From a virus, in IMG/VR virus record IMGVR_UViG_3300026532_000001: a stretch of 64,000 nt of DNA. One strand, 5' to 3'. Of the stretch, positions 1,834 to 24,824 are shown piece by piece. Within the stretch, counting starts at the first letter, position 1. Each line of letters begins with the position of its first letter. The notes beneath the pieces were generated by a model. That model was not told where the DNA came from. It did not search any database and saw nothing but the letters and a program-made list of their open reading frames with translations. The position numbers were made by a program, and so were the translations under genes.

Positions 1834-2178
1834 ATGTCACGAACACCAAACCACGCCTATTGCATAGGCACCTCATCACAGCATCGTCATTTCATGGTCA
1901 ATCTCGACTCTCCAAGAGCTGTCGAGATACTGCGGATTGACCAGCCAGACTTCCAATTCTTCGCGACTGAGATCGATGTGCTCAACAGAGTCGAGATCAA
2001 GGAGCAGGTATTCCGGTTCAAGCTAGGTACGACGCTCTACCTCGTAGCCAGCCGCGAAGTCCTAGGCTGGTATTACATCATGATGGCAACAGAACAGGGT
2101 ATGGGGTGTACCTGTAAACGCCCTAACTGCCCACATTTGGAGATGCTGAGACAGCACCAGAACGAAGTAGCAGCTTAG
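1834..2178 (+). CDS. SWIM zinc-finger protein
   Basis: CxC-x(n)-CxH signature GCTCKRPNCPHLEM near the C-terminus. Confidence 0.55.
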   Translation: MSRTPNHAYCIGTSSQHRHFMVNLDSPRAVEILRIDQPDFQFFATEIDVLNRVEIKEQVFRFKLGTTLYLVASREVLGWYYIMMATEQGMGCTCKRPNCPHLEMLRQHQNEVAA

Positions 2179-2246
2179 TTTCATGGGAGTTGGCCTCTGT
2201 GCTGACTCCCACTCTTATTCTCCCTTTTACTAGACATGGAAGCGTT

Positions 2247-2921
2247 ATGGGCAACAACAGTATCATTGAACATCGTGGGAGTTATTACTATGTTGCACTT
2301 CGAGAGGAATATCTTACTATCTGCTTGAAGGCAACATACAAGAAACAGGTCAAGGCGAAATCTGGATGTAAAGCCTCACCACACTGTAAAGCTTTCATCC
2401 TAGATATCCTAGAGCACTGGACAAATACGAAAAGAGGCAGAGGAGAGGATTTAGCCGTGTTTATGACGTATCAGCAGTGGTCAGACTCCATGTATGGCAT
2501 GTTTGGGCGTACTGCCATAATCGATAGTCTTGATGAATTGATCGGTGAAGGGCTGGTCTTTAAAGAGCCTTATAAGATGCCAGGGAACAAAGATACTTAC
2601 CAATATCGACTCAACTATCAGGAACTTAATAGACGAATAAAGCAGCTTCCAGAGCGCAATCCCTATGATACACGTCCACAAATGAACGCGTCCACAAGTA
2701 AATCGGACCCGTCCACAAGTAAACGGGTCACCCGTCCACAAGTGGATGCATACCCGTCCACAAGTAAACGCAACATAGATACTACACAGACACCTTCCAC
2801 AAACTCGCATAGAAAAGAGCCCTCCTCATTTTCAAAAGCAGCACCAGGACAAGCTCGGTCATCCTATGATGACCCCGATTATGTAGATGACACCTTTTAT
2901 CCATCAAAAGGAGCAAATTAG
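2247..2921 (+). CDS. putative replication initiator (iteron-containing gene, lambda O-like arrangement)
   Basis: Lies directly upstream of, and overlapping, the DnaC-like loader. Its C-terminal third is encoded by the iteron array (PSTSK repeats). ATG 2247 is preferred over TTG 2190. Confidence 0.45.
   Translation: MGNNSIIEHRGSYYYVALREEYLTICLKATYKKQVKAKSGCKASPHCKAFILDILEHWTNTKRGRGEDLAVFMTYQQWSDSMYGMFGRTAIIDSLDELIGEGLVFKEPYKMPGNKDTYQYRLNYQELNRRIKQLPERNPYDTRPQMNASTSKSDPSTSKRVTRPQVDAYPSTSKRNIDTTQTPSTNSHRKEPSSFSKAAPGQARSSYDDPDYVDDTFYPSKGAN
2674..2803. repeat. iteron array, six copies of core TCCACAA (four as CCGTCCACAAGT[A/G])
   Basis: Cores at 2675, 2691, 2712, 2735, 2757 and 2796. The inner spacings are 21-23 nt, about two helical turns. 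Confidence 0.8.
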
Positions 2922-3760
2922 TGGAACACATAAACGAGACGCTTAACCGGATGGACATGAAACGGAAACTATTTATTGTTCCCCCGCCTCAACCTGAAGC
3001 CGAGTGCTCTGCCTGCCAGGACAAAGGATGGACACGCCGTGATGAGTACGGTCCTGAGACTGGCTATAGATCGGTGTTAGTCCCTTGCCCTAGCTGCACA
3101 CCAGAAAGGCGGGCTAAGCAATCTGAGATTATGCAAGCCAGGCTGGTAGATAGACTCTTTGGCGGTTCGCAGATCCCCTACAAAGCCCGTGATTGGGAGT
3201 TTGATACCTTTCCTGAGAACGGTGACCAGGACGCCCGTGCCCTGGTCGAGCACTTTGTCCAGACCCACAGGGATATGACAGATGAGACCAGCAAACGTGG
3301 TCTATGGCTAGCGGGTACCCTTGGCAGAGGCAAGACAGGGCTCTCAATTTGTACACTCAAAGAATTTATGCGAGCTGGTCATCTCTCGTTATTCGTCTCG
3401 ACTCCTCAACTGATGGATAGGCTACGGGCTACCTTTGAGAAGGACTCCGATGAGAGTCAAGACGAGCTGCTCAAGGTGATAACCGAGGTGCCTTTCCTCG
3501 TCCTAGACGATTTGGGAGTCGAGAAACCGACCGTCTATGTGTTGGAGCGTTTCTATCTGATTGTCGACAAGAGGCAAAGCAGAGGGCTTTATACGATATT
3601 CAGCAGCAATCTTAGCACAAAGGATCTAGAAGCCTACTGGCGACCGTCTGACGTGCTTCCCGGTGGCTTCCACCCGGGACTTCGGATTGTCGAGAGGATA
3701 CGCGAGTATTGTATGGGCGTGAGTATCAAAGGCGGGAATTTGAGGGAAACGAGATGGTAG
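2921..3760 (+). CDS. DnaC/IstB-like AAA+ helicase loader with an N-terminal Cys4 zinc ribbon
   Basis: Walker A GTLGRGKTGLS, Walker B FLVLDDLGVEK, sensor-1-like TIFSSN. N-terminal CSACQD...CPSC. GTG start overlaps the upstream stop. Confidence 0.8.
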   Translation: MEHINETLNRMDMKRKLFIVPPPQPEAECSACQDKGWTRRDEYGPETGYRSVLVPCPSCTPERRAKQSEIMQARLVDRLFGGSQIPYKARDWEFDTFPENGDQDARALVEHFVQTHRDMTDETSKRGLWLAGTLGRGKTGLSICTLKEFMRAGHLSLFVSTPQLMDRLRATFEKDSDESQDELLKVITEVPFLVLDDLGVEKPTVYVLERFYLIVDKRQSRGLYTIFSSNLSTKDLEAYWRPSDVLPGGFHPGLRIVERIREYCMGVSIKGGNLRETRW

Positions 3761-3891
3761 GCTGTAATGAGTAGGAAGGAAGGACATAGACAGCTTTTAT
3801 GATTGCCTTGAGGGATTACTGCAATTGCAGAGGGAAGAGCAAGTTTGAAGGTTGTTCAGTACGTCTTGAGGCACACTTGGGGCTATCGTGA

Positions 3892-3931
3892 GATAGTATA
3901 GCACGCTAAGTACCACCTCTGCTATACTATC
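3892..3931 (+). promoter_or_regulatory. 11-bp inverted repeat overlapping an extended -10 (TGcTATACT 3920-3928) just before ATG 3935
   Basis: gatagtatagc (3892-3902) pairs with gctatactatc (3921-3931). The -10 ends 6 nt before the start codon and no SD is present. Confidence 0.4.
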
Positions 3932-3934
3932 AGC

Positions 3935-5542
3935 ATGCTATCGAATTCTCAATTCCGTGCCCAGTGCCAAGAACAACTTCTGGCATATGGGGCAAAGCAC
4001 CAGTACACGTACACAGCATTTGAGATCATATTTCACTTCTCATCGGCCTACGCTGGCTACGATCTCTTACACTTGGATGGCATCATTCAAAAAGCTGTCG
4101 TAGATGACGTCATGGCAGGGATGAAGCTCCCGGAATCGAGTCATCCCTACGAGATCCCCATCCCGTTAGAAATCGTCTGGAAAAGCGAAAGTGGCGTTCC
4201 ACTCTACAATTCGACCAGCCTTTTCCCAGAGGGAAAGTTCCTCAAAAAGGTCTCCTGGTGGGTGAAACGTAACGATGAGCTAGGACCGCGTTTCGCCACT
4301 CGCAAGCGGGACGGGACATGGTGGCAACCGGATGGTGGAACGGGAACCTACAAAGAGTACCGTATGCCGCTACCAACAACGGGAACAAGGGCCATTGTCG
4401 GGTATGGCGTTGGGGACATTCTTGAGATACGTCGCCTGCTGAGCAGCTTTGTTGCACTTGGCAAGAAGATCGGGGTCGGTTTTGGGCAAGTAACCCATTT
4501 CGAGATCAACCCGTGCAACATGCAGCACCGCTATGCATTCTTGCGTGATGGGGAATTACTCCGACCTGTTCCGCTGGCTGCTATGGGAGATCTGCAATTA
4601 GCGCCTGCCCAGGGTGCAATGCCCAGGCAGATAGCTTTCAGTCCACCCTACTGGCTTGCATTTCATCAAGCCAAATGCTTTGATGAAAGGATATGCGTCA
4701 AATCCTCATCAGCATATGTTATGTTCCCCAAACAGGAGGAAACACAGAGCATTGCAGATTTCCTACATAAATGTGAAGGATATGAGTTTAGGCGCAACGC
4801 TGGAGATATCACGCTCGTTCATGCCAAAATGCAACGTGGGAAGGGCAGAGGAGAACTGTGTGCTCTTTCAGGATTGCCTATTGTCGCGAATGGGGCTGTT
4901 ACTGCTCGTGATATCCTCAGCAATAGCATGGGGAACGTCGTGGACTTTCTCAAAGCGCCTGATTCGCATTGGATAAGCAATGAGGCGGCGATTATCATGA
5001 GCCAGCCCAGGAAGTTTCATCGCAATCTTGTGGCACTCATCTCTCCAGATAGTACGGATGGCTGGTTACTTTGGCCGACAATCGCCCTCGATCCTGATCA
5101 CCCGCAACAGGCACGCCCATTGTGGCGTGAGATCGTTCTAGACTGCGTAGAGAAGTATTTAGGCTGGCAGTGCGTATTGATCTTCAAGGATGAGCCCAAA
5201 TCACGCACGTGGCCTAGAGCAAGGATAGGGACCATTGGAGATCGGACACCACTGCTCTTCTCTGATTTTGATAAGCGTGGATGGGGAATGAGTGATCTTC
5301 TCATGATCGATATACACGAAACCAAGCGTCAGATGCTCAAGATCGAGTCGTGGCTTGACGCTGGATATTCTCGCAGTGCTTTGCAAACAGGCAATATTTC
5401 GGCTTCTGCAGAAAACCTGATAGAAGCCGTTACCATTCAGAAACAGCTAGAAGTCATGCGACACACTCATGAATTTATTATTGCATGGCGCATTGCTCGC
5501 TCAAAAGAAGAGCGAGATCTCAGGGAAGGAAAGAAAGCCTAA
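3935..5542 (+). CDS. RAMP-like protein (Cas5/Cas6-like N-terminal domain) fused to an uncharacterized ~340-aa C-terminal region
   Basis: 535-aa ORF, first gene of a coupled operon. N-terminal domain ends in a glycine-rich loop ALGKKIGVGFGQV (nt 4454-4492) of the GxxxxxGFG type seen in Cas6/Cas5 RAMPs. The ORF itself is solid; the functional call is inference. Confidence 0.4.
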   Translation: MLSNSQFRAQCQEQLLAYGAKHQYTYTAFEIIFHFSSAYAGYDLLHLDGIIQKAVVDDVMAGMKLPESSHPYEIPIPLEIVWKSESGVPLYNSTSLFPEGKFLKKVSWWVKRNDELGPRFATRKRDGTWWQPDGGTGTYKEYRMPLPTTGTRAIVGYGVGDILEIRRLLSSFVALGKKIGVGFGQVTHFEINPCNMQHRYAFLRDGELLRPVPLAAMGDLQLAPAQGAMPRQIAFSPPYWLAFHQAKCFDERICVKSSSAYVMFPKQEETQSIADFLHKCEGYEFRRNAGDITLVHAKMQRGKGRGELCALSGLPIVANGAVTARDILSNSMGNVVDFLKAPDSHWISNEAAIIMSQPRKFHRNLVALISPDSTDGWLLWPTIALDPDHPQQARPLWREIVLDCVEKYLGWQCVLIFKDEPKSRTWPRARIGTIGDRTPLLFSDFDKRGWGMSDLLMIDIHETKRQMLKIESWLDAGYSRSALQTGNISASAENLIEAVTIQKQLEVMRHTHEFIIAWRIARSKEERDLREGKKA

Positions 5543-7053
5543 TGTCTATTTTTGCTCTATTAGTTGCCCAAACGCCCATATCACACGGTGATCCTGGTGT
5601 AAGCAACGCATCCAATGTCATGCCGTTTCGCATGCAAGAGAGCCTCTATGCACGTCCAACACCACAAACGCCAATAGAGGACGATGAGGATCGCATTGGA
5701 CTGGAACCCGCAGAGCTCCAGATAGCCAATTTGCGCAAGGCAGAGGCAGCACTCATCCGCATGGTGGCCAGTTATCCACTCCCCGCAAACTCAGCACTAG
5801 CGGATGCTTTGCAGCAGCTTTCAGCAGAGGAGTTTGTTGCCTCTGCTTTTGTGTACTCACTCATTGCCCAGTTGAACCCGATGAATAAGGGAGATGGCTC
5901 TGGGCTCTTTAGCGGCATAGATCGCTACAATATGCTGCTCAAGCGTCTGGGGATTGTCTCAAATCAGTTCAATACCTCATTCTTCACGCTCTATTCAAGC
6001 CTCCTGAATGAATTGCTCATCAATGAGACACTGCCGCATTTTGTTGATCAACTCTATCCGTTTGCAGGTCTTCCACGCGGCTTGCAACAGTCCGTGATTG
6101 CTACACTGGGCAAAGAGCGCCAATCTGTCATCAGCATAGCCAGAGCGTGGTACAACGCCATCAAAGAGGCAAAAGAGAACAATCCAGATTGGGAGAAATG
6201 GGAAAGCATCTATTATGATCCTACTGGCAAGGTCTCAGGGAGCAGCTTAGACGATGCAGAAGCGGCTATTCCGCATATCAGTGGCAATGCATTCAGACAC
6301 TCCATCTTTCGAGAGATATTGTGTACGCATCTCTTGCAGGTATTGGAGTTTGGGTCGGTTGCCGATGTCGTCAAGAGTAATCTCATGCCTCCATATGTGA
6401 TCATGCTGCTCTCCAATGGCGGCAATATGGCGGCAAAAAGCACAGCACCTGACAATAGCGAGGCTATCAGTGCTACGATCAAGCGCACGTTCCCGTCTCT
6501 CGAACTGGTCTCAGGTGTGCTTCCAACGCACATTATGGGAGAAGGGGCTTTAAGAGTCGCTAATTGGACACTATGCCTGCAGAATAATGCCAATACAGCG
6601 GCATACGGCTATACGCGTGATATAGAGGCTGCTGCAACCCTAACTATTGTCACACATGCACGTCATGTTCCTGACGGTATGGATCATTCGAAAGAGTCGG
6701 GTCAGGGGCTTTTTGCCTATACTGCCATGAAGCCCGGGGCTCGTATCCTGATGAAACTGGACTTTCATCCATTCACCAGCGAGTTGGCCCGTGGAGCTGC
6801 ATACTTTGCGTTCAAAGAGTGGATAGCACGCGGTGCTCAAGTTGGAGGTCGCGAAGGGAGCGGATCAGGTCATTTTCTTGTGCCGGAGATCTCTATCCGT
6901 CCGTCATCAACGTTTGAGGATGAGAGTCTTGAGCAGTATGAGGATTATGCGCAAGAATATCAAGAATATGTTCAAGCCAACAAAGAGGTGCTACGAGAGG
7001 CATTGATGTACGGAACACTTGGCTGGCGTGAGAGGCTTAAGGCATGGGGATAG
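5542..7053 (+). CDS. Cas7-group RAMP-like protein (Csf2/Csm3/Cmr4-like motifs) with a large internal insertion
   Basis: ATG 5542 overlaps the upstream TAA (TAATG). Motifs: ALLVAQTPISHGD, IPHISGNAFRHSIFRE (nt 6268-6315), and G-loop VGGREGSGSGHF (nt 6841-6876). The functional call is inference. Confidence 0.45.
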   Translation: MSIFALLVAQTPISHGDPGVSNASNVMPFRMQESLYARPTPQTPIEDDEDRIGLEPAELQIANLRKAEAALIRMVASYPLPANSALADALQQLSAEEFVASAFVYSLIAQLNPMNKGDGSGLFSGIDRYNMLLKRLGIVSNQFNTSFFTLYSSLLNELLINETLPHFVDQLYPFAGLPRGLQQSVIATLGKERQSVISIARAWYNAIKEAKENNPDWEKWESIYYDPTGKVSGSSLDDAEAAIPHISGNAFRHSIFREILCTHLLQVLEFGSVADVVKSNLMPPYVIMLLSNGGNMAAKSTAPDNSEAISATIKRTFPSLELVSGVLPTHIMGEGALRVANWTLCLQNNANTAAYGYTRDIEAAATLTIVTHARHVPDGMDHSKESGQGLFAYTAMKPGARILMKLDFHPFTSELARGAAYFAFKEWIARGAQVGGREGSGSGHFLVPEISIRPSSTFEDESLEQYEDYAQEYQEYVQANKEVLREALMYGTLGWRERLKAWG

Positions 7054-7646
7054 CACACGTTGTTGTCATTCCTACGGTAAGCGAGCGGTCTACATATTGC
7101 GAGCAGACCGCATATCAATGGCACAATCTCGGATACGATGTAACCGTGTCTTGTCAATCTGACAATATCCCATGTTCTCCTAAACAGCATGGGATAATCG
7201 CTATTGCATCTTTGCGCAAGTCTTACAACAAAGAGCCTCTTGTCTTCTGTGAAGACGATGTGAGCATTGATAGACGTATTGCAGATATACGAATACCTGA
7301 AGAAGTCCATGCACTTACATTCTATTTACCCGGCAAGCGATTTTATCCACGTCGTATACTAACTACTCCAATACTAGAGCCTGAAGTATTTCAAATCATT
7401 AATCTCAAAGAGTGGTTTGGCACACAATGTATCTGGTTATCTTCTTCAACTATTGAAGCTCTTCTAGAAGCGGATCATGCCCCAGCAGGCTTTGATACTA
7501 TCCTGAGAACCTATCTCCTACAACACAATCTCCTTATGCATAGTATTATCCCAAATCTTGTACAACACCTATCCCCACCTTCAATAACATCAAAGCGATA
7601 TCATCCACACAAAAGCATCACATTTGGAGTAGAGCACCATGCGTGA
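7044..7646 (+). CDS. GT-A-fold glycosyltransferase-like protein (GT2/GT25-like)
   Basis: N-terminal VVVIPTVSER strand and an FCEDDV (DxD-like) motif. Has a 10-nt overlap with the upstream gene. Weak motif-level call. Confidence 0.3.
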   Translation: MGIAHVVVIPTVSERSTYCEQTAYQWHNLGYDVTVSCQSDNIPCSPKQHGIIAIASLRKSYNKEPLVFCEDDVSIDRRIADIRIPEEVHALTFYLPGKRFYPRRILTTPILEPEVFQIINLKEWFGTQCIWLSSSTIEALLEADHAPAGFDTILRTYLLQHNLLMHSIIPNLVQHLSPPSITSKRYHPHKSITFGVEHHA

Positions 7647-8442
7647 TATAGAGCGTTTGCAATTTGAGATGCATGCCAAACTACCAGCATTCAAGAGAAA
7701 GGTCGAACGGGCACAAGCAATTATCGATGAAGCTCTAGCTTTAAATGTACCATTCTATATAGCCTTCAGTGGAGGCATTGACTCAACTTGTCTTTTAGAT
7801 CTCATATGGCAAGTAAAGCCTAATAGTGCCATCTATTGGATTGATGATGGTGCCGATTATCCTGAAACGTTACAATTCGTGCAAGATACCTCAATTCGGT
7901 ATAGATTTCCGCAAAAATACATTAGGGGGGTAAAAGCATGGAAACAGTGGTGCGTCGAGATGGGTAGACCGGATCTGCAATCTGGAGAAGCTATGGATAG
8001 CGCATGGATGAATCCTCTGGTCCCATGGCACGGATATTGGCTCTCTGACACACAATATGCGAAATGGCTGCAATCGGAAGGTATAGGGCTGGTCTTTCTT
8101 GGCACGCTAGCGTGTGAGAGCAGCAAAAGACGCATGATACTCAAAGGTGGGTACAGGCCACTCTATCAGGTCAAGACAGAATACGGCATGTGGCACTGTT
8201 CCCCTCTGGCATCGTGGGATAAAAAGGACATATGGGCATACGCTATATCTAACAATCTTCCATACAATCCTGTATACGATAAGCTTGCAGAGCTAGGTTT
8301 GCCATTAGAGAGAAGACGTGTTGCTCCTCTGACATGCTACAAGGTCACACAATTTGGTTCTGTAGCATTTTTACGTTCTGGATGGCCTGGACTGTATAAC
8401 ATGCTGAGTGCGACCTTCCCAAAGGTCCGGGAATATAGTTAG
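7639..8442 (+). CDS. PAPS reductase / CysH-family PP-loop protein
   Basis: FSGGIDSTCLLDL PP-loop, WIDDGADYPET, and C-terminal WHCSPLASWDKKDIWAY...LPYNPVYD. Has an 8-nt overlap with the upstream gene. Confidence 0.8.
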   Translation: MRDIERLQFEMHAKLPAFKRKVERAQAIIDEALALNVPFYIAFSGGIDSTCLLDLIWQVKPNSAIYWIDDGADYPETLQFVQDTSIRYRFPQKYIRGVKAWKQWCVEMGRPDLQSGEAMDSAWMNPLVPWHGYWLSDTQYAKWLQSEGIGLVFLGTLACESSKRRMILKGGYRPLYQVKTEYGMWHCSPLASWDKKDIWAYAISNNLPYNPVYDKLAELGLPLERRRVAPLTCYKVTQFGSVAFLRSGWPGLYNMLSATFPKVREYS

Positions 8443-9723: not shown

Positions 9724-10461
9724 CTAATACAATTGTCTCCTGTTATGAGCATCAATATCTCCTAATCTTGATACTGAGTACTCATGCTCGTAGTAGTCAG
9801 CATACTCGATACGCAGCCAACTACGAAATGTATCTAACAGATCATAGGGATAGATCCATACGCCTGTAGGTCGCTTCAAGTTGGGAACCCACAAAGGATG
9901 CTTAAAGCTTGCTGATACATCAACATCAGTATCTGTGCAGTATTCTCTCCATTTCCTACCACACGAACCATCAGGCAAAGCCCAATCCTTCAGTTCCTTC
10001 TGGAATGCTACAACGATCAATGCCTCTTTGTACATCTCGTTTACCACACACCAGTATCCTGCAGGAAGTAGTGACTCGTTCGCTATACAACGCTGCTGTA
10101 CATCTTTGTTGAACGGTATTGCCGATGGTTGCCCAATAGAGTAACTCCCTGTCTTGCGGATAGACGGGATGACTTCATCGGTTACCCAACGACGGAAACG
10201 TTTGGCGCTCTCTTTTCGGCTGGTAAAAACCAGATGATAGACGCCCGACTCATTGACACACCACATCTTCCTATTTTGACCTGACCCGTACACTACACGG
10301 GTCAGCTTTTCATCATCATCTAGTCTGCGAATTGCGACCTCAGTATCAGCAATCTCTAAAACTTGACACACATCAGCAGCTACCCACCAAGGCTCTCCAT
10401 CGACTAGGACAATGCGAAGATCTTGCTCCTCAAAACTAAAAAGTTGTAAACTCTCACCCAT
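9724..10461 (-). CDS. Bro-N domain protein (antirepressor-like)
   Basis: N-terminus FSFEEQDLRIVLVDGEPWWVAADVCQVLEI...ESGVYHLVFTSRKESAKRFRRWVTDEVIPSIRKTG is typical of Bro-N. Confidence 0.75.
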   Translation of the reverse strand: MGESLQLFSFEEQDLRIVLVDGEPWWVAADVCQVLEIADTEVAIRRLDDDEKLTRVVYGSGQNRKMWCVNESGVYHLVFTSRKESAKRFRRWVTDEVIPSIRKTGSYSIGQPSAIPFNKDVQQRCIANESLLPAGYWCVVNEMYKEALIVVAFQKELKDWALPDGSCGRKWREYCTDTDVDVSASFKHPLWVPNLKRPTGVWIYPYDLLDTFRSWLRIEYADYYEHEYSVSRLGDIDAHNRRQLY

Positions 10462-16819: not shown

Positions 16820-17136
16820 CATACAGCCCCAGTTGCATCAGTGGCACTGATCATCTAAAAGCTCGCAAGATCTATCGAGCACTTGTCTCACACCACAAAC
16901 GGGCATCATGCCCAATATGCAACTCCTACCCCAAGTATGGCTCACTGATCATCAACGGTGATCTTTTCGAGCATATCGGGGATATTGCAGGGTTCAAGAT
17001 CGACGTATCCGACTTCTTCAAACTGAGGAAAGCTGGTCTGATCGAACTTGACGAGATCACACCTGCAAGACATCGGATTATCTTTGTGAAGCTCGTAAGA
17101 GAGGAAGAAACATCACCAGAGGAGGTACAAGTATGA
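16816..17136 (+). CDS. hypothetical protein
   Basis: 106-aa ORF overlapping both neighbours' stop and start codons. Confidence 0.45.
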   Translation: MTYSPSCISGTDHLKARKIYRALVSHHKRASCPICNSYPKYGSLIINGDLFEHIGDIAGFKIDVSDFFKLRKAGLIELDEITPARHRIIFVKLVREEETSPEEVQV

Positions 17137-22383: not shown

Positions 22384-22403
22384 ATAGAAGAAGGAGTGTG
22401 TCC

Positions 22404-24824
22404 ATGTATACCATCTCCTCTATTATCGATGTGGTAACGGGCCTCGGGTGGTCGGTTATCCCTGTCGGCCTCAACAAAAAGCCTCTGTTCTCTTGGAAGC
22501 AATACCAGCAGGAACGTGCTAGTGTTGAACAGATAAACCAGTGGCAAAAGCAATACAACCCGCCTGCGTGGGCGGTGATCACCGGGTCTATCAGCAACCT
22601 CATCATTCTTGATGGCGATGGGGAACCCGGGAGAAATACATTTGAGTTGCTAGGGCTCGATCCGCATAGGCGGACGGGCTCAGGCGGCTTGCATTGTGAT
22701 TTTGAGCACCCCGGCTGGTTTGTTCCCACTCTTAATAGCAAGTCAAAGATAGAGCTAGGGGAACGCTGGCCGGGGCTCGACATTCGTGGTGACGGTGGCT
22801 ATGCCGTCTTTTGTGGCAAGAACACCAGTGGCGAGTATGTCTGGTTGCGCGCCCCCGGCGAGTTGGATAGTTTAGACATACTACCTGATGACTTGCGTAT
22901 CTTCCTGGGTCTGCTCAATCCACCACAAGAGAAGACATCCCGACCAGTAGCAGATATCGCACTTGAGAGGGCGCTTCGCGATGTCTCCATAACAGGTCGC
23001 GATAATGCTTGCTTCAAGCTGGCTAAGCAACTGCATGATAATAGCTACTCCCAGGTGGAAGCGGAATCCATCTGCATGGAATTTGCTAGACGGGCTCCCA
23101 CCCATAACACTAAGGGCAAAGTTGAGCCATTCACTGAGGCCACCGCACGGGCTAAAGTCGCTTCTGCCTATTCCTATACCAAGCGCGACCCCTGGTCAAG
23201 CACTACTACCTACAGCCAGGAGCATCCTCAAAGTGGGAATGGCAGTAACCCACCAGAGTCTAACATCAATTTAGATAGTCTTCGTACTTACGTTGATGAG
23301 CGCAATACAGAACGCCTAATCGAACGGCATGGTAAGAACCTACGTTATTGCGCAAAGTGGAAAAAATGGCTTGTGTGGGATGGGAGACGGTGGTGTATAT
23401 CTGAAGCTGAGAAGGTTATTAGTCTTGCTAAAGAGACTATTAGGGCTATGTACGTAGAAGCATTAGATATTGACGATGATGAGAGAAAGCGTACTATGCT
23501 AAAGCATATTATGCGTTCTGATAAAATCAGCATGTTTGAAGCAATGGAGAGATCTGCACGTGCTGATTTACTCATATCGCCTGATGACCTGGATAAGAAC
23601 AACATGCTCTTTAACGTGCTAAACGGCACATTAGATCTAGGTACATACACCTTTCGCAAGCATAACCGAGCTGATCTCATCACACGCTTGGCTCCAGTTG
23701 TCTATGACCCTAATGCGACTTGTCCATTATGGACTGCCTTTTTTGATCGGTTCTTCCCAGAGAACCCAGACCTTCAAGCATTCATCCAGCGAATTGCAGG
23801 GTATTGCCTTACTGGTGATACCTCTGAAAAGGCAACCTTCATTGGTCATGGAGGTGGTAATAACGGGAAAAGCACGCTTCTCAACACACTGATGACCATG
23901 ATGGGAGACTATGCCGATCAAATCGCTACTGAGACTCTGATGGTTAAGCGATACGATAAGGCCATAGCCAACGATATAGCAAAGCTAAAAGGCTTGCGTC
24001 TGGTGATTGCCAGCGAGGGCGAAGAAGGCCAGCGACTAGCAGAGTCGAAAATCAAACAGATGTCAGGAGGTAGTGACCACCTCGTTGGTGAATTCAAGTA
24101 TGGAGAGGAATTTACGTTCATCCCTACGCACAAGATTTTTCTTGGCACTAACCACCTACCCCAAATACGAGGAACTGACCCAGCTATCTGGAATCGCTTG
24201 AAGCTCATCCCCTTTGCTGAGACAATCGACCCTAGCGAGGCAGATCTCCACTATATCGATAAGCTGAAAGCCGAGCTGTCAGGTATTCTTAACTGGGCTT
24301 TAGCTGGTAACAAGAACTGGAGAGCTCAGGGAATCGGGAGGAATCCCGATGTTGAGAAGTCAACCGCATCTCATAGAGCTGAGATGGACATTCTCAGACA
24401 TTTTCTAGAGGATCGCTGCGTCATCAAAAAGAATTGCCGTGTTGCCATAAGTGAACTGTATAAGGCATATGTGGAATGGTGTGATAAGAATACCGAGATT
24501 GCGTTTAATACACGACGGTTTCGCGCCGCTTTGCTTGAGCGGGGTTTTACACAGGATAAGGATGATAAAGAGCGTTTTTGGAGAGGGATTGGTCTCCTTG
24601 ATTCTGACAAAACTGACAATCCTGACACGAATTCAACAAAAGTCCCTTACGTAAAAAACGTTGAAAATAGTTTTAGTAAAACTCAGTCAGATTTGTCAGA
24701 AACGTCAGGAAAATCTGATAGATCTGCAGCTCCTGATCGTGCCTGCCTTCATTGCGGTACTAGAAACTGGCAGTGGGATAGCTTGCTAGAACGCTATACA
24801 TGTGGAAGTTGCAATCACGGATGA
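22404..24824 (+). CDS. bifunctional primase-polymerase / D5-N / SF3 (P4-type) helicase
   Basis: Prim-Pol N-terminus (VIPVGLNKKPLFSWKQYQ, LDIRGDGGYAV), D5_N-like RYCAKWKKWLVWDGRRW, Walker A GHGGGNNGKSTL, and a C-terminal Cys4 zinc ribbon. Confidence 0.85.
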   Translation: MYTISSIIDVVTGLGWSVIPVGLNKKPLFSWKQYQQERASVEQINQWQKQYNPPAWAVITGSISNLIILDGDGEPGRNTFELLGLDPHRRTGSGGLHCDFEHPGWFVPTLNSKSKIELGERWPGLDIRGDGGYAVFCGKNTSGEYVWLRAPGELDSLDILPDDLRIFLGLLNPPQEKTSRPVADIALERALRDVSITGRDNACFKLAKQLHDNSYSQVEAESICMEFARRAPTHNTKGKVEPFTEATARAKVASAYSYTKRDPWSSTTTYSQEHPQSGNGSNPPESNINLDSLRTYVDERNTERLIERHGKNLRYCAKWKKWLVWDGRRWCISEAEKVISLAKETIRAMYVEALDIDDDERKRTMLKHIMRSDKISMFEAMERSARADLLISPDDLDKNNMLFNVLNGTLDLGTYTFRKHNRADLITRLAPVVYDPNATCPLWTAFFDRFFPENPDLQAFIQRIAGYCLTGDTSEKATFIGHGGGNNGKSTLLNTLMTMMGDYADQIATETLMVKRYDKAIANDIAKLKGLRLVIASEGEEGQRLAESKIKQMSGGSDHLVGEFKYGEEFTFIPTHKIFLGTNHLPQIRGTDPAIWNRLKLIPFAETIDPSEADLHYIDKLKAELSGILNWALAGNKNWRAQGIGRNPDVEKSTASHRAEMDILRHFLEDRCVIKKNCRVAISELYKAYVEWCDKNTEIAFNTRRFRAALLERGFTQDKDDKERFWRGIGLLDSDKTDNPDTNSTKVPYVKNVENSFSKTQSDLSETSGKSDRSAAPDRACLHCGTRNWQWDSLLERYTCGSCNHG

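What the first reader, a model, noticed from the sequence alone, without database searches (positions are those of the whole stretch)
3935..8442. Array-less RAMP operon (Cas5/6-like fusion + Cas7-like) coupled to a GT-A protein and a CysH-like PAPS reductase: candidate divergent type IV-B-like CRISPR-Cas derivative on a phage
Seen: ORFs 3935..5542, 5542..7053, 7044..7646 and 7639..8442 are joined by overlapping stops and starts (TAATG at 5540-5544, then 10-nt and 8-nt overlaps), so they form one operon. ORF2 has the three hallmarks of Cas7-group RAMPs in the expected order. These are an N-terminal strand ALLVAQTPISHGD, IPHISGNAFRHSIFRE (nt 6268-6315, compare the xPGSSxKGxxR / ISGxxxRH element of Csm3/Cmr4/Csf2/Cas7), and a C-terminal glycine-rich loop VGGREGSGSGHF (nt 6841-6876). 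About 200 aa of helical-looking insertion separate the first two hallmarks. ORF1 residues ~25-190 end in a Cas6/Cas5-style G-loop ALGKKIGVGFGQV (nt 4454-4492) and are fused to ~340 aa I cannot assign. ORF4 is a clear PAPS-reductase/CysH-family PP-loop protein (FSGGIDS, DDGADYPET). Established: type IV-B CRISPR-Cas loci (csf1, cas11, csf2, csf3) lack Cas6 and adaptation genes, usually lack an array, and are characteristically linked to a cysH-like gene of unknown role. Type IV systems are carried by mobile elements. Inference: this is a RAMP effector-like module plus a CysH-like enzyme. Its layout (fusion protein, inserted Cas7-like protein, extra GT-A-like gene, no recognisable Cas11/Csf1, next to a phage replication module) is not one I recognise as a described subtype. 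I found no CRISPR repeats in the window.
Basis: partly seen in the sequence, partly recalled or inferred. Interest (0 to 1): 0.9.

Follow-up and report, generated by a model that had tools for sequence, protein, structure and literature searches.

The report
Compact phage-borne type IV-B CRISPR derivative
A temperate phage carries a stripped-down, array-less type IV-B CRISPR-Cas module: a Cas5-Cas8 fusion, a Cas7 with a built-in helical domain, a CysH-like enzyme and a swappable extra enzyme. It is a new layout of a system whose function is still unknown.

Summary

- **ORF1 (3935-5542)** is a Csf3 (Cas5)-Csf1 (large subunit) fusion. Its "unassignable" C-terminal half is Csf1, which is a separate gene in two divergent relatives.
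- **ORF2 (5542-7053)** is Csf2 (Cas7) with a ~200-aa helical domain inserted after the first beta-hairpin. The insert is conserved and under purifying selection.
- **ORF4 (7639-8442)** is a CasCysH-type PP-loop protein. It has SGGIDS and no catalytic Cys, and it groups with CysH-like proteins from type IV-B loci.
- **ORF3 (7044-7646)** belongs to a rare family with GT-A-like motifs (invariant EDD, C-terminal His). The same family sits between csf3 and cysH in more canonical IV-B loci. The fold is unproven.

No CRISPR array, cas6, separate cas11, helicase or nuclease lies in the operon.

The window is a tailed temperate phage. Only about 17 ORF2-family and 10 ORF1-family proteins exist among 5.8 billion clusters. 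All come from metagenomes and sit mostly in phage-like contexts.

The third gene is modular: GT-like, AAA_33 kinase, or absent. A CysH-like gene follows in 9 of 11 loci.

The mechanism is inferred, not shown: an RNA-bound Csf filament acting with an AMPylating enzyme, probably in counter-defence.

Verdict: a new variant of a known kind, of moderately high interest.

The parts
3892..3931 (.). Perfect 12-bp inverted repeat (GATAGTATAGCA / TGCTATACTATC, 16-nt loop) ending 3 nt before the ORF1 start codon. It may be an operator or a hairpin that occludes translation initiation. Whether it belongs to the system is uncertain.
   Evidence: The RNA fold is -18 kcal/mol with z = -1.4, which is not exceptional. 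The 12-mer is over-represented in the window: 17 matches with up to 2 mismatches against 5.6 expected. The sequence is not conserved upstream of relatives.
3935..5542 (+). ORF1: csf3-csf1 fusion gene (535 aa; Cas5-like plus large-subunit-like).
   Evidence: The full-length fusion is conserved in 10 proteins of 532-568 aa at 42-52% identity. It carries Pfam PF27782 Csf3.
4007..4678 (+). Csf3 (Cas5) domain of ORF1, aa ~25-248, including the G-rich loop ALGKKIGVGFGQV.
   Evidence: PADLOC Csf3_0_IV E 3.3e-30 covering model positions 3-214 of 222. TIGR03116 E 1.4e-9. PDB phmmer 7xfz_B Csf3 E 2.6e-4. The Foldseek top 3 hits are Csf3 chains (8rc3_F E 1.8e-6). BLASTP to the standalone Csf3 of L005 gives E 1e-20.
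4820..5509 (+). Csf1 (Cas8-like large subunit) domain of ORF1, aa ~296-525. Its zinc finger is degenerate: CxxC has become CALS and the second CxxC is lost.
   Evidence: hhalign of the domain profile A3 against the standalone 229-aa gene of L010 gives Prob 99.2, E 9e-20. Against the 241-aa gene of L005 it gives Prob 98.9, E 4e-17. The L010 protein matches PADLOC Csf1_0_IV at E 2.8e-10 over model positions 8-212 of 227. The domain has no direct hit to Csf1 models or PDB chains. The AF2 model is moderate for aa 400-530 and poor for aa 259-396.
5542..7053 (+). ORF2: csf2 (Cas7) with an inserted helical domain (503 aa).
   Evidence: PADLOC type IV Cas7 E 2.7e-16 over aa 236-485. AF2 pLDDT 75.6. 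The Foldseek top 21 hits are all type IV-A Csf2 (7xg1_F E 8.5e-7, TMt 0.61), and type IV-B 7jhy_a scores E 3.7e-4. There are 17 homologues. dN/dS against L026 is 0.075.
5653..6249 (+). Insertion in Csf2 of ~200 aa and about 8 helices (aa 38-236), placed between the N-terminal beta-hairpin and the ISGNAFRH helix. It is a candidate built-in small-subunit (Cas11) surrogate.
   Evidence: AF2 helices span 58-213, mostly at pLDDT 70-90. The insertion is conserved in all relatives, including the unfused L005 and L010. Its dN/dS is 0.083 against 0.071 for the core. No cas11 gene occurs in any locus that has the insertion. A cas11 gene is present, or likely present, in loci with Csf2 of 287-400 aa that lack it. 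Sequence similarity to Cas11 is not significant: hhalign Prob 1.6%, and the only PDB profile hit is Cas11c at E 0.36.
7044..7646 (+). ORF3: accessory enzyme of a rare family with GT-A-like motifs (VVIPTVSER, invariant EDD, PNLVQH). It occupies the variable 'slot 3' between the csf genes and cysH.
   Evidence: No hit in Pfam, PHROGs, PADLOC or NCBIfam. Five close homologues exist, and 192 representative clusters by exhaustive HMMER. Invariant residues are E70 and D71; nearly invariant are D72, H175 and R15. One of 56 members hits GT25 (E 0.0019) and two also match Pfam Glyphos_transf. The same family lies between a standalone csf3 and cysH in L021 and L019/L020. dN/dS against L021 is 0.165, with dS saturated.
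7639..8442 (+). ORF4: CasCysH-like PP-loop ATP pyrophosphatase-family protein (267 aa).
   Evidence: PF01507 E 3.5e-17. It scores far below the NCBIfam CysH cut-offs (54 bits against 154). It has the PP-motif SGGIDS and no C-terminal ECGLH Cys. It shares the C-terminal motif LR.GWP...FP.IREY with type IV-B CysH-like proteins, and an NJ tree groups it with them, away from IbrA/DUF3440 and E. coli CysH. Best tblastn hits are Rhodococcus, Mycobacterium and Gloeobacter plasmids and Skermania phage SPI1. The SPI1, Gloeobacter, Rhodovastum and one Rhodococcus loci I examined are type IV-B; another Rhodococcus hit lies next to CBASS genes.

Best explanation
**What it is**

**Shown by homology and fold**
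- ORF1 is a Csf3(Cas5)-Csf1(large subunit) fusion.
- ORF2 is Csf2(Cas7) carrying a conserved ~200-aa helical insertion.
- ORF4 is a CasCysH-type PP-loop enzyme without the PAPS-reductase catalytic cysteine.
- ORF3 is a member of a small enzyme family with GT-A-like motifs that recurs next to cysH in other IV-B loci.
- There is no array, Cas6, adaptation gene, helicase or nuclease in the operon.

**Inferred by analogy with the Mycobacterium IV-B complex (PMC7937560)**
- Several ORF2 copies polymerise on an RNA.
- One ORF1 caps the filament.
- The helical insertion of ORF2 takes the place of the missing Cas11 minor filament, so that two polypeptides build the whole ribonucleoprotein.
- Because the phage has no array, the RNA is either non-CRISPR RNA or a guide taken from the host.

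**Inferred from family chemistry (ATP alpha-hydrolase/AMPylation, PMC8175902)**
- ORF4 adenylates a substrate held or selected by the complex, most likely a nucleic acid.
- The variable slot-3 enzyme (GT-like here, AAA_33 P-loop kinase in most relatives, absent in the closest one) adds or prepares a further group on a hydroxyl acceptor.

**Likely biological role**
Counter-defence or inter-element competition early in infection or during lysogeny.
For: **Identity of the parts**
- Profile and fold matches.
- Csf1 assignment through unfused relatives.
- The Csf2 insertion is a confident helical domain, conserved across the clade, and as constrained as the core (dN/dS 0.083 against 0.071).

**Cas11 distribution**
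- No cas11 gene occurs in 8 insertion-bearing loci: the window, L001, L003, L004, L006, L026, L005 and L010.
- Cas11 is confirmed in the L015 and L016 loci, whose Csf2 lacks the insertion.
- Cas11 is likely in L021.
- Cas11 is assigned only by position and size in L012 and L017.

**CasCysH features and grouping**
-.

**Operon conservation**
- A CysH-like gene follows in 9 of 11 loci with enough downstream sequence.
- The ORF3 family lies between csf3 and cysH in L021 and L019/L020, at 59% and 50% identity.
- Translational coupling is seen at all three junctions.

**Context and absences**
- Phage context and early-region position.
- No array.
Against: - No biochemical function is known for any type IV-B system or CasCysH (PMC8175902; PMC11656645). 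All mechanistic steps are therefore by analogy.
- The insertion shows no significant sequence similarity to Cas11. hhalign gives Prob 1.6%, while the same Cas11 profile detects a divergent Cas11 in L021 at Prob 80%.
- The isolated insertion could not be searched by structure.
- ORF1's Csf1 domain is linked to Csf1 only transitively. It has lost three of four zinc ligands.
- Two relatives lack an adjacent CysH-like gene: L028, and L030, where a PAS/HisKA kinase follows AAA_33.
- The ORF3 fold is unproven.
- The host is unknown. No relative occurs in 185,579 reference species genomes.
Confidence: 0.6

Rival explanations
1. It is a guide-RNA sponge acting as an anti-CRISPR. The Csf filament soaks up host crRNAs or other small guide RNAs and neutralises them. 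CysH-like and ORF3 are peripheral, or merely mark the captured RNA.
For: - The type IV-B complex binds heterogeneous small RNAs rather than defined crRNAs (PMC7937560, as summarised).
- The sponge idea is proposed in the literature (PMC7038947; PMC8175902).
- The locus has no array and sits on a phage, in the early region.
- Relatives lie close to an ArdC-N-like gene.
Against: - It does not explain the near-constant CysH-like partner or the swappable enzyme slot.
- Reviewers consider such a complex anti-CRISPR unlikely.
- Nothing here tests RNA capture.
Confidence: 0.17
2. It is a conventional crRNA-guided type IV interference or silencing system. It uses an array located elsewhere, either in the unseen ~14 kb of the 84-kb phage contig or on the host chromosome.
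For: - All core Csf subunits are present.
- An archaeal virus IV-B locus carries a mini-array (PMC10848311).
- A Gloeobacter plasmid IV-B locus includes Cas6.
Against: - No array occurs in 64 kb plus 6 kb upstream.
- There is no Cas6 and no DinG/RecD helicase in the operon.
- None of the related loci examined shows an annotated array or a cas6. Arrays were not searched for systematically in those loci.
Confidence: 0.12
3. The enzymes are the point. ORF3 and ORF4 (kinase and CysH-like in relatives) form a nucleic-acid modification pathway for the phage's own genome, used to evade host restriction. The Csf proteins act only as a DNA- or RNA-binding scaffold.
For: - PP-loop enzymes of this superfamily modify DNA (DndC; weak local DndC and BrxP hits).
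- The slot-3 enzymes are a GT-like protein or a P-loop kinase.
- The ORF3-ORF4 cassette is closer to that of L021 than to the cassette of the backbone relative L001. This suggests a mobile enzyme module.
Against: - The catalytic Cys used by DndC and CysH is absent (PMC8175902).
- No other Dnd or BREX components were found.
- Slot 3 is empty in the closest relative.
- No evidence of modified bases can be obtained from sequence alone.
Confidence: 0.08
4. It is a decaying, non-functional remnant of a type IV system.
For: - Several parts are missing: the array, a separate cas11, and most Csf1 zinc ligands.
- In L029 the genes are called as split ORFs.
Against: - Intact, overlapping ORFs are conserved over 42-85% identity in more than 10 independent contigs.
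- dN/dS is 0.07-0.17.
- The identical locus was recovered from at least 4 assemblies.
Confidence: 0.03

Closest known systems
Subtype IV-B CRISPR-Cas (csf1-cas11-csf2-csf3 plus cysH-like; e.g. Mycobacterium sp. JS623, PDB 7JHY)
   Same: - It has Csf1, Csf2 and Csf3 homologues and an adjacent CasCysH-type gene.
- It has no array, Cas6, adaptation genes, helicase or nuclease.
- It is carried by a mobile element (PMC7038947).
   Different: - Csf3 and Csf1 are one polypeptide, encoded upstream of csf2.
- There is no cas11 gene. Csf2 instead carries a ~200-aa helical insertion.
- The Csf1 zinc finger is degenerate.
- An extra, exchangeable enzyme gene lies between csf2 and cysH.
Putative subtype IV-E (Csf1 fused to Csf3, DinG, CRISPR array; Campylobacter/Bacteroides; PMC7038947)
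   Same: It has a Csf3-Csf1 fusion in the same order. ORF1 gives a weak hit to the PADLOC Csf3-Csf1_0_IVE model (E 0.0027, aa 136-350).
   Different: - It has no DinG, no array and no Cas6, and it is linked to CysH instead.
- Its closest unfused relatives (L005, L010) have the order csf1-csf2-csf3-cysH. The fusion therefore probably arose independently within a IV-B-like lineage (inference).
Virus-borne type IV-B loci: Bathyarchaeia 'Fuxiviridae' (PMC10848311) and Skermania phage SPI1 Orf40-44 (shown here)
   Same: Both are IV-B effector genes plus a CysH-like gene on viral genomes. The SPI1 CysH-like protein is ORF4's best match among 50,697 phage records.
   Different: - Both have separate csf1, cas11, csf2 and csf3 genes.
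- SPI1's Csf2 is 339 aa with no insertion.
- Fuxivirus also has a mini-array.
- Neither has the ORF3-like or AAA_33 slot gene, as far as seen.
Unfused metagenomic relatives L005 and L010 (csf1 | csf2 with insertion | csf3 | cysH-like)
   Same: They have the same inserted Csf2 (27-29% identity; hhalign Prob 97.7 for the insertion) and the same Csf1 and Csf3 families. They have a CysH-like gene, lack cas11, and sit on phage contigs.
   Different: - Csf3 and Csf1 are separate genes in the canonical order.
- L010's Csf1 keeps both CxxC motifs.
- A small 95-aa gene (L005) or no gene (L010) occupies slot 3.
PAPS reductase superfamily enzymes: assimilatory CysH, DndC, BrxP, IbrA/DUF3440
   Same: ORF4 shares the PAPS_reduct fold family and the nucleotide-binding loop.
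   Different: - It has a true SGGxDS PP-motif and no catalytic Cys.
- It scores below all curated cut-offs.
- It lacks the DUF3440 C-terminal extension.
- It groups with CasCysH rather than with these enzymes.

Membership tests
[quoted passage not shown] | Csf2 (type IV Cas7) present | tested here: met
   PADLOC type IV Cas7 models score E 2.7e-16 to 7e-13. The Foldseek top 21 hits are Csf2 chains, and 7jhy_a scores E 3.7e-4.
[quoted passage not shown] | Csf3 (type IV Cas5) present | tested here: met
   PADLOC Csf3_0_IV E 3.3e-30. TIGR03116 E 1.4e-9, below the curated cut-off. PDB sequence hit to Csf3 and fold hits to Csf3.
[quoted passage not shown] | Csf1 (small Cas8-like large subunit with zinc finger) present | tested here: inconclusive
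   Homology is established transitively. ORF1's C-terminal domain matches L010's standalone protein by hhalign (Prob 99.2), and that protein matches Csf1_0_IV at E 2.8e-10. The domain itself has no direct model or PDB hit. Three of the four zinc-ligand cysteines are lost.
[quoted passage not shown] | No adaptation module and no effector nuclease in the locus | tested here: met
   The four-gene operon and its flanking genes carry no cas1, cas2, cas4 or nuclease hits. The rest of the window was scanned only for larger ORFs.
Subtype IV-B | Adjacent cysH-like (CasCysH) gene | tested here: met
   ORF4 overlaps ORF3 by 8 nt. For its CasCysH features, see the CasCysH rows.
Subtype IV-B | No CRISPR array, no Cas6, no DinG/RecD helicase | tested here: met
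   No arrays were found. There are no Cas6 or helicase hits in the operon. The only helicase seen is the phage primase/helicase at 22398-24824.
Subtype IV-B | Separate cas11 (small subunit) gene between csf1 and csf2 | tested here: not met
   There is no ORF between or beside the csf genes, and no Cas11 model hit. The insertion compared with a IV-B Cas11 profile gives hhalign Prob 1.6%. The same profile finds a Cas11 in L021 at Prob 80%.
Subtype IV-B | Separate csf1, csf2 and csf3 genes in that order | tested here: not met
   The order here is csf3-csf1 (fused) followed by csf2.
Subtype IV-E (putative) | Csf1-Csf3 fusion | tested here: met
   Described in PMC7038947.
Subtype IV-E (putative) | DinG helicase and associated CRISPR array | tested here: not met
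CasCysH (type IV-B CysH-like; PMC8175902) | PP-motif SGGxDS/T in place of the CysH loop | tested here: met
   FSGGIDS lies at aa 43-49. It aligns with SGGKDS of IV-B CysH-like proteins and with SSFGIQA of E. coli CysH. The E. coli sequence was recalled from memory.
CasCysH (type IV-B CysH-like; PMC8175902) | Catalytic C-terminal cysteine (ECGLH) absent | tested here: met
   The protein ends ...FPKVREYS. The Cys in APLTCY is not conserved in L005, L010 or canonical IV-B proteins.
CasCysH (type IV-B CysH-like; PMC8175902) | Clusters with IV-B-linked CysH-like proteins, apart from housekeeping CysH | tested here: met
   BLASTP gives 88-115 bits to IV-B-linked proteins, against 67 (IbrA), 44 (E. 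coli CysH) and 40-43 (DUF3440). A rough NJ tree of 16 sequences, without bootstrap, groups it with them. Contexts were verified. One close Rhodococcus homologue lies next to CBASS rather than csf genes.
Assimilatory PAPS/APS reductase (CysH) | Reaches the curated family score and has the catalytic Cys | tested here: not met
   NF002537 scores 54 bits against a cut-off of 154. TIGR00434 scores 48 bits against a cut-off of 165. There is no ECGLH.
GT-A fold glycosyltransferase (ORF3) | N-terminal Rossmann-like strand, DxD-type acidic motif and a distal His metal ligand | tested here: inconclusive
   VVIPTVSER, invariant E70 and D71 (D72 nearly invariant) and nearly invariant H175 are present across 56 family members. 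These are motif resemblances only.
GT-A fold glycosyltransferase (ORF3) | Significant profile or structural match to a GT-A family | tested here: inconclusive
   ORF3 has no Pfam, NCBIfam, PHROG or PADLOC hit. One of 56 relatives hits Glyco_transf_25 at E 0.0019, and two also match Pfam Glyphos_transf. The PDB profile search gives only a mimivirus GT R655 at E 0.054. No structure prediction quota was left.
Dnd / BREX DNA-modification systems | DndC or BrxP orthologue with partner genes (DndA/B/D/E; BrxC, PglX and others) | tested here: not met
   Only short local hits around the PP-loop were found (BrxP E 4e-10, DndC E 2e-7, aa 31-102). No partner genes occur in the operon or among the flanking ORFs scanned.

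The most novel reading that the evidence does not exclude
**Two-polypeptide effector.** In this reading, the Csf3-Csf1 fusion plus a Csf2 whose inserted helical domain replaces the Cas11 filament build the entire ribonucleoprotein.

**Plug-in enzyme delivery.** This array-less phage machine delivers a plug-in enzyme set to RNA-selected targets. The set is a CasCysH AMPylase plus either a glycosyltransferase-like enzyme or a P-loop kinase. It would amount to a programmable or guide-scavenging nucleic-acid modification system used for counter-defence.

**Why it helps.** The swappable slot-3 enzymes would point to the acceptor chemistry of the long-mysterious CasCysH reaction.
Probability: 0.25. 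Interest if true: 0.85.

Novelty: new variant of a known kind. Interest (0 to 1): 0.62.

Why it matters
Type IV-B is the least understood CRISPR-Cas subtype. Reviews up to December 2024 still call its function, and that of CasCysH, uncharacterised (PMC8175902; PMC11656645).

This clade offers three things:
1. **A minimal effector.** It needs only two proteins, which should be easier to reconstitute and image than the four-protein complex. In that complex Csf1 and Csf3 were not resolved (PMC7937560).
2. **A natural experiment on Cas11.** The separate Cas11 gene is lost wherever Csf2 has gained a helical domain.
3. **A modular enzyme slot next to CasCysH.** The slot holds a GT-like enzyme, an AAA_33 kinase, or nothing. 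The GT-like family also occurs in canonical IV-B loci. This narrows hypotheses about what CasCysH acts on.

The locus also adds phage-borne examples, including an unannotated canonical IV-B locus in the cultured Skermania phage SPI1. That phage could serve as an experimental entry point.

Tried and rejected
**Searches that found nothing**
- blastn and tblastn of the operon and of ORF1 and ORF2 against 50,697 GenBank phages gave no match.
- A scan of GTDB species genomes for ORF1 relatives found none, so there is no host assignment.
- IMG/VR held only two related contigs. The JGI metagenome scan added one truncated locus.
- TerL tblastn matched unrelated phages at 37% identity or less, so no host could be inferred.
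- Foldseek of the ORF2 model against BFVD gave nothing significant.

**Direct assignment of ORF1's C-terminal half**
- There were no hits in PADLOC or by PDB profile search.
- hhalign against the Rhodovastum putative Csf1 was not significant.
- The assignment was solved only through the unfused relatives.

**Test of the Csf2 insertion as Cas11**
- PADLOC gave no Cas11 hit.
- The PDB profile search returned only Cas11c, at E 0.36.
- hhalign against a single IV-B Cas11 gave E 0.11. Against a 4-sequence Cas11 profile it gave Prob 1.6%.
- Cas11 homology is therefore rejected as a demonstrated fact and kept only as a positional and functional hypothesis.

**ORF3 and other accessory genes**
- ORF3 is not a kinase. 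It has no Walker A motif, unlike the AAA_33 proteins of relatives.
- ORF3's GT-A membership could not be confirmed.
- The small genes between csf3 and cysH in L005 and L012 are not similar to each other.

**Other leads**
- The upstream hairpin was considered as a structured RNA handle. Its fold is unexceptional (z = -1.4) and it is not conserved in relatives.
- The ParB-like gene at 17133 was considered as an IbrB partner of an IbrA-like enzyme, but no IbrA-like neighbour was found.

ORF3, ORF4 and the isolated insertion were not modelled.

Full report
**1. The observation**

Four + strand ORFs lie at 3935-5542 (535 aa), 5542-7053 (503 aa), 7044-7646 (200 aa) and 7639-8442 (267 aa).
- The junctions are TAATG, a 10-nt overlap and an 8-nt overlap.
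- The longest version of ORF2 starts at 5485. The 5542 start is preceded by a purine-rich SD-like run and matches the conserved N-terminus of all homologues.
- The 64-kb window has no CRISPR-like array, no tRNA and no Rfam match.
- The 6 kb further upstream on the 84,246-bp source scaffold also has no direct-repeat array.

**2. What the window is**

The window is a tailed temperate phage.
- Upstream of the operon are an O-like replication initiator with internal iterons and a DnaC-like loader.
- Downstream are an HTH/MerR-like gene and an Ant/Bro-N-BstA_C gene.
- Further along are a ParB-like protein, an HNH endonuclease, a primase/helicase, an integrase, TerL, portal, protease, major capsid protein, tape measure protein and endolysin.
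- The identical operon was assembled independently from at least four metagenomes, one of them in a soil catalogue.
- No relative of ORF1 exists in one genome each of 185,579 bacterial and archaeal species. No relative of ORF1 or ORF2 exists in 50,697 GenBank phages. The host is unknown, and TerL is uninformative.

**3. ORF1 is a Csf3-Csf1 fusion**

Residues ~25-248 are Csf3 (Cas5):
- PADLOC Csf3_0_IV gives E 3.3e-30.
- TIGR03116 gives E 1.4e-9.
- phmmer against Csf3 of the type IV-A structures 7xfz and 8rc3 is significant.
- The only significant Foldseek matches of the AF2 model are three Csf3 chains.

The C-terminal ~290 aa gave no hit on their own. Two divergent viral contigs resolve them.
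- Both contigs, L005 and L010, have the unfused layout gene X | Csf2-with-insertion | Csf3 | CysH-like.
- The ORF1 C-terminal profile matches gene X with hhalign Prob 98.9 (E 4e-17) in L005 and Prob 99.2 (E 9e-20) in L010.
- Gene X of L010 matches PADLOC Csf1_0_IV at E 2.8e-10 over nearly the whole model.
- ORF1's second half is therefore Csf1.

The zinc finger has decayed. L010's CSIC...CRYC corresponds to CALS and a Cys-free stretch in the fusion clade.

A Csf1-Csf3 fusion is otherwise known from the putative subtype IV-E (PMC7038947). ORF1 gives a weak hit to that model (E 0.0027).

The fusion is conserved at full length in 10 proteins out of 5.8 billion clusters.

**4. ORF2 is Csf2 with an inserted helical domain**

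- Type IV Cas7 models match aa 236-488 (E 2.7e-16).
- The AF2 model has pLDDT 75.6. Its top 21 PDB matches are all type IV-A Csf2 chains. These are followed by the IV-B Csf2 7jhy_a, then type I-A Cas7 and Csm3.
- The N-terminal hairpin (strands 2-9 and 30-37) belongs to the Cas7 core.
- Between that hairpin and the ISGNAFRH helix lies a confidently predicted domain of about eight helices, spanning residues 58-213.
- The domain is conserved in all 17 family members, including the unfused L005 and L010.
- It is as constrained as the core. dN/dS is 0.083 for the insertion and 0.071 for the core against the 85%-identical relative L026, with dS 1.35.

**5. Where is Cas11?**

- No cas11 gene occurs in any of the eight insertion-bearing loci: the window, L001, L003, L004, L006, L026, L005 and L010.
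- I fetched five comparator IV-B loci whose Csf2 (287-400 aa) lacks the insertion. Each has a gene in the cas11 position.
  - PADLOC confirms Cas11 in Skermania phage SPI1 and the Gloeobacter plasmid.
  - In L021 hhalign supports Cas11 at Prob 80%.
  - In the Rhodovastum and Rhodococcus loci it is assigned only by position and size.
- This complementary distribution suggests the insertion substitutes for the small subunit.
- Sequence does not demonstrate homology:
  - PADLOC gives no Cas11 hit.
  - The only PDB profile hit at E <= 10 is Cas11c, at a non-significant E of 0.36.
  - hhalign against a IV-B Cas11 profile gives Prob 1.6%.
- I therefore treat 'built-in Cas11 surrogate' as an inference (about 40% likely), not a finding.

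**6. ORF4 is a CasCysH-type protein**

- It matches PF01507 at E 3.5e-17. It scores far below the curated CysH cut-offs.
- It has the two features said to define CasCysH (PMC8175902): a true PP-motif (SGGIDS) and no catalytic C-terminal cysteine.
- Its best tblastn matches among 72,556 plasmids are in Rhodococcus, Mycobacterium, Gordonia and Gloeobacter plasmids. Among phages the best match is Skermania phage SPI1.
- The SPI1, Gloeobacter, Rhodovastum and one Rhodococcus locus are type IV-B. One other Rhodococcus copy lies next to CBASS genes.
- BLASTP bit scores are as follows:

| Comparator | Bits |
|---|---|
| Fusion clade | 179-284 |
| L005 | 115 |
| Rhodococcus copy next to CBASS | 105 |
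| IV-B-linked (Rhodococcus, Gloeobacter, SPI1) | 88-93 |
| IbrA | 67 |
| Rhodovastum IV-B | 59 |
| L010 | 57 |
| E. coli CysH | 44 |
| DUF3440 | 40-43 |

- A rough NJ tree groups ORF4 with the IV-B-linked proteins.
- ORF4 and those proteins share the C-terminal motif LR.GWP...FP.IREY, which CysH and DUF3440 lack.
- The tree is small and has no bootstrap support.

**7. ORF3 and the variable slot**

ORF3 has no hit in four profile libraries and only five close relatives.
- Exhaustive HMMER finds 192 representative clusters of ~200-230-aa proteins.
- Across 56 of them, E70 and D71 are invariant, and D72, H175 and R15 are nearly invariant.
- One member hits Glyco_transf_25 (E 0.0019) and two also match Pfam Glyphos_transf.
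- The PDB profile search gives nothing significant.
- The GT-A reading is therefore plausible (about 55%) but unproven.

The same family sits between a standalone csf3 and a CysH-like gene elsewhere.
- In L021 the layout is Csf1 with CxxC motifs | cas11-like | Csf2 of 317 aa without insertion | Csf3 | ORF3-like (59% identity) | CysH-like (58% identity).
- It also occurs in L019 and L020.

Within the fusion clade the slot varies:
- It holds an AAA_33 P-loop kinase in L001, L003, L004, L006 and L030.
- It is empty in the closest relative, L026.

The window's backbone (ORF1 and ORF2) is closest to L026 and L001. Its ORF3 is closest to the L021 cassette. ORF4 is nearly equidistant from L026 (64% identity) and L021 (58%), and closer to both than to L001 (48%). 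The enzyme cassette therefore looks modular. Shmakov et al. had noted ADP-ribosyltransferases in some IV-B loci (10.1101/270033).

**8. Conservation of the module**

- ORF1 and ORF2 homologues co-occur on every contig long enough to tell.
- A CysH-like gene lies within a few genes downstream in 9 of 11 loci.
- The exceptions are L028, where none lies within 3 kb of the contig end, and L030, where AAA_33 is followed by a PAS/HisKA sensor kinase.
- Where enough sequence is available, contexts are mostly phage-like. They include VRR_NUC, Endonuclease_7, terminase, HTH_17, resolvase and ArdC-N genes.

**9. How it most likely works**

Shown:
- The parts list and its homology.
- Purifying selection and translational coupling.
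- The absence of an array, Cas6, helicase and nuclease.
- Phage carriage.

Inferred by analogy with the IV-B cryo-EM structure (PMC7937560):
- ORF2 polymerises on RNA.
- ORF1 caps the filament.
- The insertion lines the target-facing side in place of Cas11.

Inferred from family chemistry (PMC8175902):
- ORF4 uses ATP to AMPylate a substrate presented by the complex.
- The slot-3 enzyme, a GT-like protein or a kinase, acts on a hydroxyl acceptor in the same pathway.

The biological role is probably counter-defence or inter-element competition. This rests on the early-region location and the mobile-element distribution.

The rivals are a pure guide-RNA sponge, conventional guided interference with a distant array, self-DNA modification, and a dead remnant. 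They are weighed in the structured fields. The dead-remnant reading is essentially excluded by conservation and dN/dS.

**10. Comparison with the known, and novelty**

- The locus is a type IV system of the IV-B kind. It is CysH-linked, array-less and helicase-less.
- It fails two IV-B layout features: a separate cas11 gene, and separate csf1 and csf3 genes in canonical order.
- It shares the fusion with IV-E without IV-E's DinG and array.
- Viral carriage of IV-B is already published (PMC10848311).
- I found no description of four things: the inserted Csf2, the loss of cas11 that goes with it, the CysH-linked fusion, or the ORF3-like and AAA_33 accessory slot.
- I classify it as a new variant of a known kind.
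- Interest is 0.62. It is not categorically new. It gives a minimal, phage-borne form of the most enigmatic CRISPR subtype and new handles on the CasCysH question.

Noticed in passing
window 2670-2772: Four iteron-like direct repeats of ~21-23 nt (ACCCGTCCACAAGT...) lie inside the O-like replication initiator gene (2190-2921). This is probably the phage origin, as in lambda O.
   Followed up: no
window 3892-3931 and 15 other sites: A perfect 12-bp inverted repeat ends 3 nt before the ORF1 ATG. The 12-mer GATAGTATAGCA has 17 matches with up to 2 mismatches in the window, against 5.6 expected (maximum 10 in shuffles). One match lies directly before the ATG at 1834. It may be a phage regulatory motif.
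   Followed up: partly
L003 13921-15732: The CysH-like gene of this relative is interrupted by a 330-aa intein-like insert (C...HN|S) directly after the conserved KRDVW motif. A HicB-like antitoxin gene sits between csf2 and the AAA_33 gene.
   Followed up: partly
L016 (Skermania phage SPI1, KR011061, Orf40-44; locus 2093-5726): A cultured lytic actinophage carries a complete canonical type IV-B locus: Csf1, Cas11, Csf2, Csf3 and a CysH-like gene. All five are annotated as hypothetical proteins.
   Followed up: yes
L015 (Gloeobacter morelensis plasmid pGMOR1; locus 2766-6708): A cyanobacterial plasmid has a IV-B-like locus with Cas11 | Csf2 (400 aa) | Cas6 | Csf3 | CysH-like, followed by a cupin gene. 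This is one of the rare IV-B loci with Cas6.
   Followed up: partly
L010 9508-11453; L012 9118-11889: A second, DUF3440/IbrA-like PAPS-reductase homologue paired with a ParB-N-like gene lies right next to the IV-B-like locus in two unrelated elements. L012 also has a GNAT gene there.
   Followed up: no
L030 8626-11233; L026 3563-3934: In L030 the AAA_33 gene is followed by a 677-aa PAS/HisKA sensor kinase instead of a CysH-like gene. L026 has a response-regulator receiver gene two genes after its CysH-like gene. This hints at a signalling link.
   Followed up: no
L029 3054-6212: In this forest-soil contig the csf3/csf1 and csf2 genes are each called as two ORFs (282+281 aa and 116+403 aa). This could be assembly error, pseudogenisation or a genuinely split form. 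A HAD-like hydrolase follows the CysH-like gene.
   Followed up: no
window 9724-10461 (- strand): This gene encodes a Bro-N/Ant anti-repressor domain fused to a BstA_C-like C-terminus. It hits the PHROG for the BstA abortive-infection system at E 3.6e-12.
   Followed up: no
L022 1849-2490 and 4542-4976 (upstream of the window on the 84-kb scaffold): An HD_4 (RelA/SpoT-type HD) gene and a GNAT acetyltransferase lie on the opposite strand a few kb upstream of the replication module. GNAT genes also lie near the module in L001 and L004.
   Followed up: no
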